Shown here: positions 21,001 through 24,000 of the stretch, one piece after another
Layout of the letters: every line of letters begins with the position of its first letter
Position numbering within the stretch: the stretch's first letter is position 1
NCBI GenBank assembly: GCA_963716745.1
Contig: OY970320.1
Location: 2,112,001 to 2,176,000, forward strand
Length of the DNA: 64,000 nucleotides
Origin: an uncultured Gemmatimonadaceae bacterium
GTDB lineage: Bacteria > Gemmatimonadota > Gemmatimonadetes > Gemmatimonadales > Gemmatimonadaceae
Direction: 5' to 3'
Position numbers: made by a program

Positions 21001-24000
21001 AGGCCGACGTTTGGTTCGGCGCGCCGGCCGACATCTTCGCACGCGCGGCGGCGGAGAGTCTGCTCACCGCGTACAAGCCGACGTGGGCCGCGGCCGTGGA
21101 CACGAGCGCGCGCGACGCGAACGACTACTGGTACGGCACGTACCGGACGCCGGAAGTGATCGCGTACAATTCCGACGTCGTGACCGCGGCGGACGCGCCG
21201 ACACGATTGGGACGAGGTGCTCGCGCCCAAGTGGAAAGGGAAAGGTGCTGATCCGCGATCCGCTGGGCAGCGGCAGCATGCGCGCGATCTTCGCGGCGCA
21301 GATCGTGCGAGGATGGAAGTCTTCGAACGGACCGGATTCCGGATACGCGTGGCTTGCGGAAGCTGGACGCGAGCACGAAGGAATACGTCGCGAATCCGGC
21401 GCTGCTGTACCAGAAGCTCGGGCGGCGAGAGGGACTCATCTCGTTGTACAACATGCCGGATATCGCGGCGCTGAAGGCGAAAGGCATCCCGGTCGCGTAC
21501 TCGATCCCGAAGTCGGGGACGCCGTTGCTCGTGGACGCGATCGCGGTGGTGCGCGGCGCGAAACATCCGGACGCGGCGAGACTTTACTATGAATTCGTCA
21601 CGTCGCCGGCGGCTTTGACGGCGGCGGCGAATAAGTTTTGGAGAATACCGGCTCGCAACGACTTGAAGACAGATTCCTTGCCGGCTTGGGTGAGAGAGGC
21701 GCTCACGGAGATCAAGGTGATTCCGCTGGATCGATCGCTCATGGAAGCGCACTTGGATGAATGGATGAAATATTGGGATGCGAATATACGGCGGAGGAAC
21801 TGAACTACCGGGAACCGATTACCGGGAACCGGTGTGGCATAACAACTCATTCCGTAACTGCTCCCCGCGAGAGGCTCGCGATGAGCCGGGTGAGCATCTG
21901 GCGGACGCGAATAGCGAGGGTCGACGCGCTCGAGAGCTCGGAGCCGCTGAGAAAGCCCAGGCGTTTCGTGCTCTCGAGGTGAGTGACCACCTCCGCAAGT
22001 GATCCGCGCGCGATCGCGAGAAAGTGGAGGTACTCGCGCCGGTGTGACCTCGCATTTCCTTCGGCAATGTTGGCGGGAATCGAGGATGCCGCGCGCCGCA
22101 GCTGATCAGCGAGGCGAGTGCGCTCGTAGTCGGGTAGGCGTGCCGCCAATCGGTATACCTCGACCATGAGGTCCATCGCGCGTTGCCAGACCTCCAATTC
22201 CTCGCAAGGCGCCGCCATAGCCCCTCCGTCGGCATCCACGATGATCGAAAGAAACGCCGCCGGCGTAACTCTTTCATTCCGCAGAGCACCATCCTGCCGC
22301 GCGCAGTAACACCATGCTTTGTCATGCCTCACCGGTTCCCGGTAACCGGTTCCCGGTAGTTCCTCCGTGCCGCGGTCGCGCAGACAGCTTCCTCGTGTCA
22401 CCTTTCCCCAATGCCGAGCTCTCTCACTCTCGACTCCCTGACCCGCCGTTTCGGCGATAAGGCTGTCGTCGATTCGCTGAGCCTCGCGGTCGAAGCCGGC
22501 ACTCTGCTCGCTCTCGTCGGCGCCAGCGGTAGTGGGAAAACAACAACGCTAAGGATGGTCGCCGGCTACGACACGCCCGACGCCGGCAAAGTCCTCATCG
22601 ACGGCAAGGACATCACGAACGAGCCCGTCGCCAGTCGTGAGTTCGGCATGGTCTTCCAGCACTACGCCCTATTCCCGCACTTAAGAGTCGGCGAGAACGT
22701 CGCCTTCGGTCTCGAAGCGCGCGGCGTGAACAAGTCCGATCGCGAGAAACGCGCGACGGCCACGCTGACTACCGTCGGACTCGGCGGGGCAGGGAACCGC
22801 ACCGTTCAGTCCCTCAGCGGCGGCGAACAGCAGCGCGTCGCACTCGCGCGCGCCCTCGTGATCGAGCCCCGCGTATTGCTCCTCGATGAGCCCCTGTCGA
22901 ACCTCGATCCCACTCTGCGCCGCTCCATGCGCGATGAGCTCCGCTCGATGCTTCGTCGATTGAGCGTCACCGCTCTCTTCGTCACGCACGATCAAGAGGA
23001 CGCCTTCGCCGTCGCCGATCGCGTCGCGCTCCTCGCACACGGCAAACTCCTCCAGGTGGGTGCGCCCGAGGAGCTCTACGATGCCCCCGCGAATCGCGCG
23101 GTCGCCGAATTCATCGGCCGCGCCGCCCTCGTGCCCGCTACTTTCGATGGCGCGCGCGCCACGATCTCCATCGCCGGCGTGTCGTACAACTTCGCGGCGC
23201 GCGGTTCCGTTCGCGGCGACGCGCTCGCTGTCCTTCGTCCCGACGCCCTCATGCTCGCGCCCGAAGGCACCGCCCGCGCCTGGTTCGGTACGGTCACGTC
23301 GCGCCGTTTCGCCGGCGGTCATGTCGCCTACCATGTGAAGCTCAGCGACACCGTGGAAGTCGAAGTCATGAGCGCCGATCGCGACGTGCGCGAAGGATCC
23401 CGCATCGGCGTCACGATCGGCCACAAACCGATCGCGGTGGTCGCGCCGTGAGCACCCCGCGCAGCCGCGGCACTTGGCTGCTCGCCGCGCCCGTGCTGGC
23501 GATCCTCGCCTGGGCGGTCGTCTACCCGAACGCCAACGTCATCGCCGGATCCTTCGCGCACGGGCTCGGCTACTGGCGCGAATTCGCCGGCAATCCGGGC
23601 GACCTCGAGGCGCTGCGCACCACGCTGCTCATCTCGATCGGTTCGGTGATCCTCGCCACGCTCATCGGCGTGCCGCTCGCCTTCCTCCTCACGCGCGTCG
23701 AATTCCCCGGCCGGCGCACGCTCGGCGCGGTCGCCACGATCCCCGCGGCGCTGCCGCCGCTCGTCGGCGTGATCGCCTTCCTCTTCCTGTACGGCGAGAG
23801 CGGCGTGGTCACGCGCGTCGTGCAGCGCATGCTCGGCCTCGAGAACCCGCCGTGGACGTTCACCGGTGTGTGGCCCATTCTCGTGGTGCACGCGTACGCG
23901 ATGTACGTGTATGTCTATCTCTTCGTCGCCGCGGGTCTCGAGCGCTACGACACGTCGCTCGACGAAGCGGCCTCCGGACTCGGCGCGAGCCGCGCGCTCC

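What a model noticed while it worked through the whole genome (the two positions that open the first line are those of the whole stretch)
21802..22362. Four-helix-bundle 'S23p' (23S-rRNA-intervening-sequence protein family) genes sit in hairpin loops between inverted hept [...]
All six intact PF05635/TIGR02436 genes of this genome lie inside a 537-705-bp hairpin element: [40-90-nt arm of short tandem repeats]-[gene]-[inverted arm] (C1:568183-568728 g00600; 1007704-1008408 g01045; 2133802-2134362 g02162; 2198533-2199069 g02226; 2350869-2351504 g02364; 3094949-3095581 g03142). Each gene has its own arm sequence, and each arm is that of exactly one of the genome's families of short ORF-less palindromes (16-62 loci per family, 221 in all), which equal the two ends of the long element. 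So the palindromes are loop-less (MITE-like) derivatives of gene-bearing elements, one protein paralogue per repeat family, which argues that the protein acts on its own arms. The build i [...]
Evidence so far: Inverted repeats around the six genes: 40-92 nt, 85-94% identity, E 1e-10 to 1e-27. Arm-vs-genome BLAST: g00600 arm hits only family 0 (62 loci), g01045 family 5 (16), g02162 family 1 (48), g02226 family 10 (33), g02364 family 4 (36), g03142 family 7 (26). Short copies align to both ends of the long element and to nothing between, e.g. family 1: 1-38 to 7-43 and 74-118 to 511-555 of 561, 91-92%; same for families 0, 4, 7. A k-mer scan of all 40-400-aa genes for inverted flanks gave 13 genes, 4 of them S23p genes, the rest genes between two complete palindromes. 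Other Gemmatimonadota: 23 of 26 PF05635 genes with enough flank, from 14 genomes, have flanking inverted tandem-repeat arms; shifted [...]
(Added by a program. Inside this text positions count along the whole contig: contig position 2,112,001 is position 1 of the stretch shown here. "Call 12" and the like, gene names such as g00115 and contig names such as C1 are that model's own, and its searches are not shown. The text may have been shortened before it was handed on; [...] marks where a part breaks off. The agent that wrote the report below was given it as the finding of a first reader that could run no searches.)

Follow-up and report, generated by a model that had tools for sequence, protein, structure and literature searches.

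The report
Four-helix-bundle gene inside heptad-repeat hairpin
A small gene for an Avd-like ring protein sits between two inverted arrays of 7-base repeats; the same build surrounds this gene family in many bacterial phyla and has left hundreds of gene-less palindromes in this genome, which suggests (but does not prove) that the protein recognises its own flanks.

Summary
Window 21802-22362 is a 561-bp element: a 123-aa PF05635/TIGR02436 gene on the minus strand, between inverted arms of tandem 7/14-nt repeats. It lies between two ABC-transporter genes. Each arm type matches 19-65 dispersed loci, mostly ~100-200-nt palindromes.

New here:
- The build is general. 37 of 40 loci in the genus and 55 of 73 loci from many phyla have flanking inverted arms, against 8 of 459 shifted controls. 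Period is 7 or 14 in 53 of 55, and the upstream arm is G-rich in 51 of 55.
- Six other genera have the site empty. Five congeners hold an element there with four different heptads.
- There is no target duplication, no RNA-strand (G.U) bias, and no Y1 transposase or reverse transcriptase.

It is the non-rRNA form of the ORF-bearing 23S rRNA intervening sequence. Binding of the protein to its own arms is plausible: Avd is a homologue, arm and protein co-diversify, and arms are invariant within a genome. It is unproven, and palindrome spread is decoupled from gene presence in other genomes.

The parts
21802..22362 (-). Whole S23p hairpin element (561 bp). It is inserted between the stop of an ABC substrate-binding-protein gene and the start of the ABC ATPase gene, with its gene antisense to that operon.
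   Evidence: Inverted repeat I1. As single-stranded DNA it folds to -157.9 kcal/mol, z -7.6, with a terminal stem of about 45 bp. The site is empty in 6 other genera.
21802..21868 (.). Left arm, which is the 3' arm in gene sense. It holds tandem units TACCGGGAACCGAT / TACCGGGAACCGGT. It overlaps the last codons and the stop of the S23p gene, and its outer end abuts or overlaps the TGA of the upstream SBP gene.
21847..22218 (-). S23p gene: 123 aa, ATG at 22218-22216, preceded by GGAGGGG. It is a PF05635 / TIGR02436 four-helix-bundle protein.
   Evidence: AlphaFold model with pLDDT 94.5 and four helices. Foldseek hits: 2GSC at TM 0.87, 2RLD at 0.82, Avd 4DWL/8UB7 at 0.77.
22296..22362 (.). Right arm, which is the 5' arm in gene sense. 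Its reverse complement reads GAACTACCGGGAACCGGTTACCGGGAACCGGTGAGGCATGACAA...
21354..21803 (+). 3' part of the ABC substrate-binding-protein gene. Its stop lies at the element's outer edge, and its last codons differ from those at empty sites.
22411..23451 (+). ABC transporter ATPase gene downstream of the element.
62223..62323 (.). Gene-less palindrome of the same arm family (family 1).
26379..26482 (.). Gene-less palindrome of the g00600 (GCGGGAA) arm family. Further copies of this family lie at 27737-27784 (one arm, CGGGACT/CGGGATT type) and 55437-55539.
8415..8595 (.). Gene-less palindrome of the g02364 (CAGTCAA) arm family. A second copy lies at 48566-48770.
6837..6968 (.). Gene-less palindrome of the g03142 arm family. 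One arm of another copy lies at 38443-38511.
36554..36792 (.). Gene-less palindrome of the g01045 arm family.
56377..56545 (.). Gene-less palindrome of the g02226 (GGCTGTC) arm family. One arm of another copy lies at 12973-13002.
51603..51689 (.). Palindrome of a family with no gene-bearing copy in this genome (de novo family 1).

Best explanation
What it is. The feature is an S23p hairpin element, a compact and probably selfish module. A gene for an Avd-like four-helix-bundle protein (solved homologues crystallise with five chains) is bracketed by two inverted arrays of about 3-5 tandem heptads, usually H-G-G-K-N-N-N, with the G-rich strand upstream in gene sense. It is the same kind of module as the ORF-bearing intervening sequences of 23S rRNA, but it sits between protein-coding genes.

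History. It entered this site in or before the ancestor of the genus. Since then gene and arms have diversified or been exchanged as a unit. In this genus, internal loss of the gene gave arm-to-arm palindromes, which now occupy about 250 intergenic sites, mostly at the 3' ends of genes.

Proposed mechanism (inferred). The S23p oligomer binds the heptad arrays of its own element and of its gene-less copies. One subunit would read each heptad, with the conserved GG core read by conserved residues and the variable positions read by variable ones. This would parallel Avd, which binds a stem-loop next to its own gene. Such binding would keep both arms, and all units within them, matched to the protein. 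It might also promote or protect hairpin or cruciform DNA during copying or recombination.

Shown here:
- the anatomy of the element;
- its generality across phyla;
- the polarity of the arms;
- insertion versus empty site;
- co-diversification of gene and arms;
- invariance of arms within a genome;
- absence of target-site duplication, of a transposase and of a reverse transcriptase.

Inferred:
- binding of the protein to the arms;
- any role of the protein in spread.
For: 1. Architecture far beyond chance and across phyla.
- 7 of 7 loci in G000 have flanking arms.
- 37 of 40 loci in six congeneric genomes have them; 2 of the 3 misses lie at contig ends.
- 55 of 73 loci from many phyla have them, against 8 of 459 shifted controls.
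- Period is 7 (30 loci) or 14 (23 loci) in 53 of 55. The upstream arm is G-rich in 51 of 55.
- 51 of 61 clear heptad runs carry a GG core.

2. Insertion.
- The SBP-ATPase junction is 12-95 nt in six other genera.
- It is 565-615 nt, holding an S23p element, in all five congeners that have the site.

3. Gene and arms change together.
- Four heptad types occupy the one site: CCGGGAA/CCGRTTR, GGGAAAA, CGGGAAA/CGGGATA and CGGGACT.
- All 8 CGGGA-type elements form one protein clade, 100/98.
- The G002_L017 arm equals the g00600 arm with the 2-nt spacer changed from AG to CT in every unit of both arms.

4. Within G000 the heptad arms are nearly invariant.
- In 33 family-1 copies, 24 of 26 outer-stem pairs are >=97% identical. 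Inner stems vary by compensated changes.
- Columns >=95% conserved: 55 of 136, 85 of 194 and 41 of 115 for three families with an intact gene, and 19 of 170 for the merged g01045+g03142 cluster (also intact genes, two subfamilies aligned together). For the two gene-less families the figures are 1 of 94 and 16 of 247.

5. Arm complementarity shows no RNA-strand bias. G.U-compatible mismatches, sense versus antisense: 40 vs 35, 43 vs 43 and 295 vs 271. This fits DNA-level symmetry or one protein reading both arms.

6. Homology.
- PHROG 'Avd of DGR' at E 6e-8.
- Foldseek gives Avd at TM 0.77. 2GSC and 2RLD each have chains A-E.
- Passages read: Avd is a pentameric, positively charged barrel that binds a stem-loop RNA just downstream of TR (207 of 278 DGRs).
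- Passages read: the Coxiella IVS has a 28-bp terminal stem and 2-3 tandem heptamers upstream of its S23p ORF.
Against: - No binding or mobility was observed.
- Presence of the gene and spread of palindromes are decoupled. G016 (8 genes) and G007 (5 genes) have 0.5 and 1.5 local palindromes per 100 kb. G015 and G008 (no gene) have 1.8 and 4.1. G000 has 9.0.
- Families persist without a cognate gene. CGGGACT arrays give 66 matches in G000, which has no gene with such arms. Family-1 cores: 47 exact in G002 and 7 in G004, where no cognate gene was found; those assemblies are 63% and 76% complete.
- At orthologous loci the arms are not conserved between species. G000 vs G004: arms 68.5%, inner part 67.9%, flanks 88.6%, from 3 loci. 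Homogeneity within a genome could therefore come from gene conversion or template switching rather than from selection by a protein.
- No copies are identical. Nearest-neighbour identity is 87-95%, with a maximum of 98.6%, so there is no sign of current activity.
- 18 of 73 cross-phylum loci show no inverted repeat by my test.
- The genus shows weaker polarity, 27 of 37.
- No catalytic motif is known for the family.
Confidence: 0.5

Rival explanations
1. Co-inheritance only. The arms are cis-acting hairpin DNA that any host process (replication slippage, template switching, recombination at palindromes) copies and homogenises. S23p is a passenger with another role and never touches the arms. 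The gene-to-family pairing simply reflects descent of each palindrome family from one gene-bearing master.
For: - Gene presence and palindrome density are decoupled across genomes.
- Families persist without a cognate gene.
- Gene-less families exist in G000, and a ~200-nt family exists in G008, which has no S23p gene.
- Arms are not conserved between species at orthologous loci.
- Compensated changes are typical of quasi-palindrome correction.
- No TSD.
- Gene-sized segments bounded by palindromes are gained or lost, as expected if palindromes are general recombination joints.
Against: - It does not explain why this one gene family is bracketed by heptad arrays in 55 of 73 loci across phyla (controls 8 of 459), with a fixed G-rich polarity in 51 of 55.
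- It does not explain why the GG core is kept while the other positions change together with the protein clade.
- It does not explain why outer heptads are sequence-invariant while inner stems are only pairing-constrained.
Confidence: 0.3
2. RNA-level element, as in rRNA intervening sequences. The arms pair in the transcript, RNase III cuts the stem, and the module acts as a transcript insulator or processing site. The protein may be dispensable.
For: - In Coxiella the IVS stem is cut by RNase III within the repeat region, and the authors judge the RNA to be more relevant than S23p (passages read).
- The element lies inside an operon, antisense to it, so read-through RNA would contain the hairpin.
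- Palindromes are enriched between convergent genes: 87 of 242 intergenic palindromes, against 222 of 1357 gaps in general.
Against: - No excess of G.U-compatible mismatches on either strand: 40 vs 35 and 43 vs 43 in gene-bearing elements, 295 vs 271 in 118 palindromes between co-directional genes.
- 0 of 80 cross-phylum loci and 0 of 40 genus loci lie in 23S-like sequence (no positive control was run).
- The 23S gene of G000 has no insert.
- 33 of 40 genus genes read as intact domains, so the ORF is maintained.
Confidence: 0.12
3. REP/RAYT-like elements, MITEs or integron-like sites moved by an enzyme encoded elsewhere (Y1 HUH transposase, TnpB-associated system, DDE transposase or integron integrase).
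For: - The layout (a gene flanked by inverted copies of a dispersed repeat, plus palindromic intergenic copies) is that of REP/RAYT.
- Cassette-like presence or absence of [gene + palindrome] units.
- Local clusters of one family, for example 19 copies in 46 kb.
Against: - No PF01797 match in the single-contig genome.
- No TnpB domain over the cut-off.
- No RVT_1.
- Four tyrosine-recombinase loci, none near the clusters.
- Genes in the cluster lie on both strands and are large, unlike integron cassettes.
- No TSD.
- DDE transposase families were not searched by me.
Confidence: 0.06

Closest known systems
ORF-bearing intervening sequences (IVS) of 23S rRNA genes (Leptospira, Coxiella, Brucella, Xanthomonas type)
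   Same: - An S23p/PF05635 ORF lies inside a few-hundred-bp element with terminal inverted repeats that form a long stem.
- In Coxiella, 2-3 tandem heptamers lie upstream of the ORF and their number varies between strains (passages of PMC4990558).
- That paper cites Ralph & McClelland 1993 for an old proposal that the ORF encodes a mobility component. I could not read the 1993 paper.
   Different: - This element lies between protein-coding genes, not in helix 25 or 45 of 23S rRNA. The 23S gene here has no insert.
- Heptads occur on both sides as inverted arrays.
- The genome has seven paralogous elements with different arms.
- Gene-less derivatives have multiplied to 19-65 loci per arm type.
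- RNase III processing is not known here.
Avd, the accessory protein of diversity-generating retroelements
   Same: - Same fold: TM 0.77 to 4DWL/8UB7. PHROG Avd at E 6e-8.
- Avd is a pentameric, positively charged barrel that binds structured nucleic acid encoded next to its own gene (passages read).
   Different: - The Avd equivalog model is not met: 21.8 bits against a cut-off of 80.
- No reverse transcriptase anywhere in the genome, and no TR/VR.
- The flanks are inverted heptad arrays, not a template repeat and spacer.
REP elements / REPINs and their RAYT transposases
   Same: - A single small gene is flanked by inverted copies of a repeat that is also dispersed in tens of intergenic copies.
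- Different paralogues go with different repeat families.
- The copies are old and mostly sit at 3' ends of genes.
   Different: - The protein is a four-helix bundle with no HUH/Y1 motif, and the genome has no PF01797 match.
- The arms are tandem heptads rather than a single short palindrome with a GTAG-type head (REP features recalled, not tested).
- The dispersed copies are arm-to-arm hairpins of 100-200 nt.
MITEs (non-autonomous derivatives of transposons)
   Same: Short copies consist of the two ends of a longer gene-bearing element.
   Different: - No target-site duplication: the modal flanking direct repeat is 2 nt, the same as the control.
- No transposase in the long element.
Cyanobacterial STRR heptanucleotide arrays (name and unit recalled from memory)
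   Same: Same kind of tandem heptads. CCCCAGT/ACTGGGG arrays flank an S23p gene in 2 of the 80 sampled array loci, with the same polarity.
   Different: 78 of 80 sampled arrays have no S23p ORF within 900 nt, and only 10 of 80 have an inverted partner within 700 nt. Most STRR arrays are therefore solo.

Membership tests
PF05635 / TIGR02436 (S23p, 'four helix bundle protein') | Profile score over the curated cut-off | tested here: met
   PF05635: 119.6 bits against a cut-off of 33.8. TIGR02436: 117.5 bits against 24.
PF05635 / TIGR02436 (S23p, 'four helix bundle protein') | Four-helix-bundle fold like 2GSC and 2RLD | tested here: met
   Model with pLDDT 94.5 and helices 5-26, 31-56, 61-87, 93-123. 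TM 0.87 to 2GSC and 0.82 to 2RLD.
PF05635 / TIGR02436 (S23p, 'four helix bundle protein') | Homopentameric toroid | not tested
   2GSC and 2RLD each list chains A-E. The pentamer is stated in PMC4990558. The oligomer of this protein was not modelled.
ORF-bearing 23S rRNA intervening sequence | S23p ORF enclosed by terminal inverted repeats that form a stem | tested here: met
ORF-bearing 23S rRNA intervening sequence | Tandem heptamers next to the ORF (described for Coxiella) | tested here: met
   14-nt (2 x 7) tandem units in both arms. Period 7 or 14 in 53 of 55 related elements.
ORF-bearing 23S rRNA intervening sequence | Located in a 23S rRNA helix (9, 25 or 45) | tested here: not met
   The element lies between ABC-transporter genes. 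The 23S gene is 2959 nt against a 2925-position model, so it has no insert. 0 of 120 related loci contain 23S-like sequence.
ORF-bearing 23S rRNA intervening sequence | Excision from the transcript by RNase III | not testable with these tools
There is no G.U strand bias.
DGR Avd | Avd equivalog model over its cut-off | tested here: not met
   NF033474: 21.8 bits against a cut-off of 80.
DGR Avd | Adjacent reverse transcriptase with template and variable repeats | tested here: not met
   No RVT_1 match in the whole single-contig genome.
REP/RAYT (REPIN) | The flanked gene is a Y1 HUH transposase | tested here: not met
   The gene is PF05635. There is no PF01797 match in the genome.
REP/RAYT (REPIN) | Gene flanked by inverted copies of a repeat that is dispersed in the genome | tested here: met
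MITE / TIR transposon | Target-site duplication | tested here: not met
   In 92 elements the modal flanking direct repeat is 2 nt, the same as the offset control.
MITE / TIR transposon | Short copies equal the ends of a longer element | tested here: met
Integron cassette array (attC sites) | Integron integrase next to an array of co-oriented cassettes | tested here: not met
   Tyrosine recombinases lie at 300, 515, 1442 and 2776 kb only. The cluster at 905-951 kb has genes on both strands, up to 811 aa long.

The most novel reading that the evidence does not exclude
S23p proteins would be a phylum-spanning class of programmable heptad readers. A homo-oligomeric four-helix-bundle ring would have each subunit read one 7-nt unit, with a conserved GG core plus variable letters that co-evolve with the protein. 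Gene plus inverted heptad arrays would then form a new kind of mobile or selfish hairpin element with no transposase or reverse transcriptase. It would be propagated by recruiting host replication or repair at protein-bound hairpins. This class would include the 23S rRNA intervening sequences, would have seeded genome-wide palindrome families here, and may have seeded some heptanucleotide arrays elsewhere.
Probability: 0.17. Interest if true: 0.88.

Novelty: new variant of a known kind. Interest (0 to 1): 0.74.

Why it matters
PF05635/TIGR02436 'four helix bundle protein' is a widespread gene family with no known function. The origin of the ORF-bearing rRNA intervening sequences, and the role of their ORF, have been open since the early 1990s (PMC4990558).

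Nearly all members examined sit between inverted, polar arrays of tandem heptads that co-diversify with the protein. That gives the family a concrete, testable ligand: its own flanks. It also ties three things together:
- the IVS ORFs;
- Avd of diversity-generating retroelements;
- the large palindrome families of at least one bacterial genus.

If binding is confirmed, the variable heptads would offer natural protein-nucleic-acid specificity pairs. The palindromes would be a new example of a REP-like genomic repeat system built on a non-enzymatic protein.

There is also a practical point. Heptad arrays and clustered palindromes next to these genes may be mis-called as CRISPR arrays. A large CRISPR survey lists '23S rRNA IVP' among array-associated proteins (figure legend read). 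The link to mis-calling is my guess.

Tried and rejected
- **Integron reading** of the 19-palindrome cluster at 905-951 kb. Rejected: the genes lie on both strands and are up to 811 aa long, and no integrase is nearby.
- **RNA-structure selection.** No G.U strand bias in three data sets.
- **Target-site duplication.** None found.
- **Age test.** Families with an intact gene have only slightly closer nearest neighbours (89.6-95.2%) than gene-less families (86.8, 88.0, and 92.5 with n=4) or the broken-gene family (90.0%). This is too weak to use.
It did not: palindrome density does not follow the number of S23p genes. Only 112-200 kb per genome was sampled, in four genomes.
- **Purifying selection on arms between species.** Not found (5 loci against G002, 3 against G004).
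- **STRR link.** Only 2 of 80 CCCCAGT arrays are next to an S23p ORF. My HMM was built from Gemmatimonadota proteins and may miss distant members.
- **Promoter scan.** No sigma-70-like site in 21600-22560.
- **Rfam.** Nothing in 21000-23200 apart from a chance-level hit at E 0.67.
- **PADLOC.** No match.
  - Ralph & McClelland 1993 is not held.
- **Literature searches that found no description of heptad-flanked S23p genes outside rRNA:**
  - 'S23p' + 'intervening sequence';
  - 'PF05635';
  - 'four helix bundle protein' + 'inverted repeats' + '23S rRNA';
  - STRR terms;
  - '23S rRNA-intervening sequence protein';
  - 'TIGR02436';
  - 'S23 ribosomal protein' + 'repeats';
  - Avd / heptamer terms;
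  - Gemmatimonadetes palindrome terms.
  The library lacks most subscription journals.
- **Not done.** Oligomer modelling, DDE-transposase searches, residue-to-heptad covariation.

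
Full report
**1. The observation**

Window 21802-22362 is a 561-bp unit.
- Its ends are inverted repeats at 21802-21868 and 22296-22362 (67 nt, 82% complementary). Each contains a 14-nt tandem repeat, TACCGGGAACCGRT.
- Between them, on the minus strand, lies an ORF whose likely start is the ATG at 22218, preceded by GGAGGGG.
- The protein matches PF05635 (E 8.8e-35) and TIGR02436 (E 2.9e-34).
- Folded as single-stranded DNA, the whole unit forms a long hairpin: -157.9 kcal/mol, z -7.6.

Genome-wide:
- PF05635 matches seven places.
- The arms differ between elements, and most are built of short tandem units.
- BLAST of each arm against the genome gives 65, 19, 48, 51, 37, 26 and 45 loci, with no locus shared between arm types.
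- For the window's family these loci are ~120-nt near-perfect palindromes that equal the two ends of the long element.
- A de novo scan found 293 local inverted-repeat loci. They cluster into families of 48, 48, 45, 40, 29, 28, 21, 9, 4 and 3.
- Using a crude gene caller of my own, 242 of 256 short palindromes are intergenic. They are enriched between convergent genes: 87 convergent, 117 tandem, 38 divergent. Among all gaps of 80 nt or more the figures are 222, 823 and 312.

**2. An insertion, and a site with changing tenants**

- In six genomes of other genera the substrate-binding-protein and ATPase genes are 12-95 nt apart. One of these genomes, G012, is unpublished.
- In all five genomes of this genus that contain the site, the genes are 565-615 nt apart, and an antisense S23p element begins at the stop codon of the first gene.
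- The five tenants carry four different heptads:
  - CCGGGAA/CCGRTTR in G000 and G005;
  - GGGAAAA in G002;
  - CGGGAAA/CGGGATA in G004;
  - CGGGACT in G001.
- G002 flanks are 91-93% identical to G000, yet the element is unalignable by DNA search.
- In a tree of 33 intact proteins from the genus, the elements at this site are not one clade apart from elements at other sites. The G004 tenant is sister to the g00600 group (82/79), and G001_L012 is sister to the G000+G005 tenants (90/71).
- All eight elements with CGGGA heptads do form one clade (100/98).
- So gene and arms travel and change as one unit, by replacement, by fast co-evolution, or by both.

**3. Generality**

- In six congeneric genomes, 37 of 40 PF05635 loci have flanking inverted arms. 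Two of the three exceptions touch contig ends.
- A scan of one genome per species found 594 relatives, and the best 80 were fetched. By their record titles they come from Planctomycetota, Acidobacteriota, Chloroflexota, all proteobacterial classes, Bacteroidota, Armatimonadota, Nitrospirota, Patescibacteria and one archaeal MAG.
- Of the 73 loci with at least 250 nt on both sides, 55 have an inverted repeat bracketing the gene. The figure for windows shifted by 1.5-4.5 kb in the same loci is 8 of 459.
- The arm period is 7 in 30 and 14 in 23 of the 55. The upstream arm, in gene sense, is G-rich in 51 of 55, with mean (G-C)/(G+C) of +0.60. In the genus the polarity is weaker, 27 of 37.
- Of 92 elements, 61 show a strict period-7 run of 2-5.6 units (median 3.6). 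Of those, 51 read H-G-G-(G/T)-N-N-N.
- None of the 80 + 40 loci contains 23S-like sequence. This was BLAST with the G000 23S gene, without a positive control. The 23S gene of G000 has no insert.

**4. What it resembles in print**

- Passages of the Coxiella IVS paper describe a 428-nt element in 23S rRNA with three features:
  - an S23p ORF;
  - a 28-bp terminal stem cut by RNase III;
  - two or three tandem heptamers (GACAGAT) upstream of the ORF, their number varying between strains.
- The same paper reports that the Xanthomonas S23p is a homopentameric toroid. It also recalls an old proposal that the ORF encodes a mobility component.
- The model of the window's protein (pLDDT 94.5) superposes on 2GSC (TM 0.87), on 2RLD (0.82), and on Avd of diversity-generating retroelements (0.77).
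- A DGR preprint (passages) shows that the Avd pentamer binds a stem-loop RNA encoded just downstream of the template repeat.
- The element here fails the defining features of both relatives. It is not in rRNA. The Avd equivalog model is not met, and the genome has no reverse transcriptase.
- My nine literature searches found no account of heptad-flanked S23p genes outside rRNA or of their gene-less derivatives. The library lacks most subscription journals.

**5. Evidence on mechanism**

For a sequence-specific reader of the arms:
- The cross-phylum architecture and its polarity.
- The conserved GG core, with variable letters that follow the protein clade.
- A case in which the 2-nt spacer changed from AG to CT in every unit of both arms (g00600 type versus G002_L017).
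- Within G000, a sharp contrast along the palindromes. In 33 family-1 copies, 24 of 26 outer-stem pairs are at least 97% identical, the inner stem varies by compensated changes, and the tip is free.
- Columns at least 95% conserved number 55 of 136, 85 of 194 and 41 of 115 in three families with an intact gene. The fourth intact-gene cluster, which merges the g01045 and g03142 subfamilies in one alignment, has 19 of 170. The figure is 43 of 145 in the family of the broken gene, and 1 of 94 and 16 of 247 in two gene-less families. Alignment quality is a caveat.
- Arm mismatches show no RNA-strand bias: 40 vs 35, 43 vs 43 and 295 vs 271. The symmetry therefore looks DNA-level.

Against, or at least not for:
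- No target duplication.
- No Y1 transposase, no TnpB over the cut-off, no reverse transcriptase.
- No identical copies; nearest neighbours are 87-95% identical.
- Sampled palindrome density does not follow the gene: 9.0 per 100 kb in G000, 0.5 and 1.5 in genomes with 8 and 5 S23p genes, and 1.8 and 4.1 in genomes with none. The last of these includes a ~200-nt family.
- Family counts across the genus are mixed.
  - GGGAAAA arrays occur almost only in G002, which has that gene: 28 matches, against 5 in G004 and 0 in four other genomes.
  - CGGGACT arrays number 66 in G000, which has no such gene.
  - Exact family-1 cores number 64 (G000), 18 (G005), 47 (G002) and 7 (G004), with the cognate gene found only in G000 and G005. 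G002 and G004 are incomplete assemblies.
- Orthologous palindromes are no better conserved in their arms than elsewhere. Against G002: arms 96.4%, flanks 95.1%. Against G004: arms 68.5%, flanks 88.6%. The within-genome uniformity is therefore concerted, and it could come from conversion or template switching as well as from a protein.

**6. Reading**

- With high confidence, this is an IVS-type S23p hairpin module outside rRNA. It was inserted in the genus ancestor or exchanged since. The genome's palindrome families are largely its gene-less derivatives.
- With moderate confidence (about 0.5), the protein binds the heptad arrays of its own element.
- With low confidence, that binding is what spreads or maintains the palindromes.
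- The main rival is plain co-inheritance with host-driven hairpin dynamics.

**7. Side observations**

- Gene-sized segments bounded by two same-family palindromes are present in G000 but replaced by a single palindrome in G002 and/or G004. The palindromes therefore act as recombination joints.
- Three of the seven gene-bearing elements begin within 5 nt of the end of the upstream gene.
- In G000 the inverted repeat runs into the last codons of the SBP gene.

Noticed in passing
G000 contig 916029-916919 and 921336-923098 (outside the window; loci L040, L123, L124): Two gene-sized segments, a DinB-like gene and a 466-aa gene, each lie between two family-1 palindromes in G000. They are missing, with a single palindrome and the same outer flanks, from G004 (both segments) and from G002 (the second segment). 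Palindromes therefore behave as joints for gain or loss of [gene + palindrome] units.
   Followed up: partly
G000 contig 905-951 kb, 812-835 kb, 750-781 kb, 2305-2323 kb: Copies of one palindrome family cluster locally: 19, 9, 8 and 10 copies, often one per intergenic gap. The regions hold mixed accessory-type genes on both strands.
   Followed up: partly
window 20591-21803: The substrate-binding-protein gene upstream of the element is split over several frames (ORFs 20943-21251, 21354-21803 and others). Either it is a pseudogene or the assembly has indel errors. The genome scores 89.8% complete although it is a single contig.
   Followed up: no
G000 contig 2641112-2641789: The frame-broken seventh S23p gene has arms (64 nt, 83%) of TACCGCTAACGGCGGGG/GCGTTG units and a family of 45 loci.
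   Followed up: yes
L139, L143, L145 (genome G008, no S23p match): A ~200-nt palindrome family, beginning GGCATCAAGG and carrying CGGATG-type units, occurs in a genome without any PF05635 match. It resembles the gene-less family 6 of G000 and palindromes at two orthologous sites in G004.
   Followed up: partly
L170, L220, L221, L225, L227 (Gemmatimonadota), L167/L168/L208 (Flavobacteriales), L194 (Acidobacteriota) and others: Exact CCCCAGT x3 arrays, known to me from memory as a cyanobacterial STRR unit, also occur in non-cyanobacterial genomes. 2 of the 80 sampled arrays flank an S23p gene (L226, L235).
   Followed up: partly
arms of many elements, e.g. L058, L121, G001_site (L004): Many upstream arms are (GGG N4)n with four or more runs. 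This is a canonical G-quadruplex motif on the sense strand, with the C-rich complement downstream. Not tested.
   Followed up: no
window 21796-21810; G000 contig 568178-568183; window 62217-62229: The outer end of CGGGA-type elements reads (G/A)AACTGA or CTGAAC, and the TGA serves as, or lies next to, the stop of the upstream gene. At filled sites the SBP ends ...RRN*. At empty sites it runs three or four codons further, ending ...RGS* in two of the six.
   Followed up: partly
literature: PMC10910872, figure legend: A large CRISPR survey lists '23S rRNA IVP' among proteins associated with CRISPR arrays. Tandem heptad arms or clustered palindromes may have been called as arrays. This is my guess and was not checked.
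   Followed up: no
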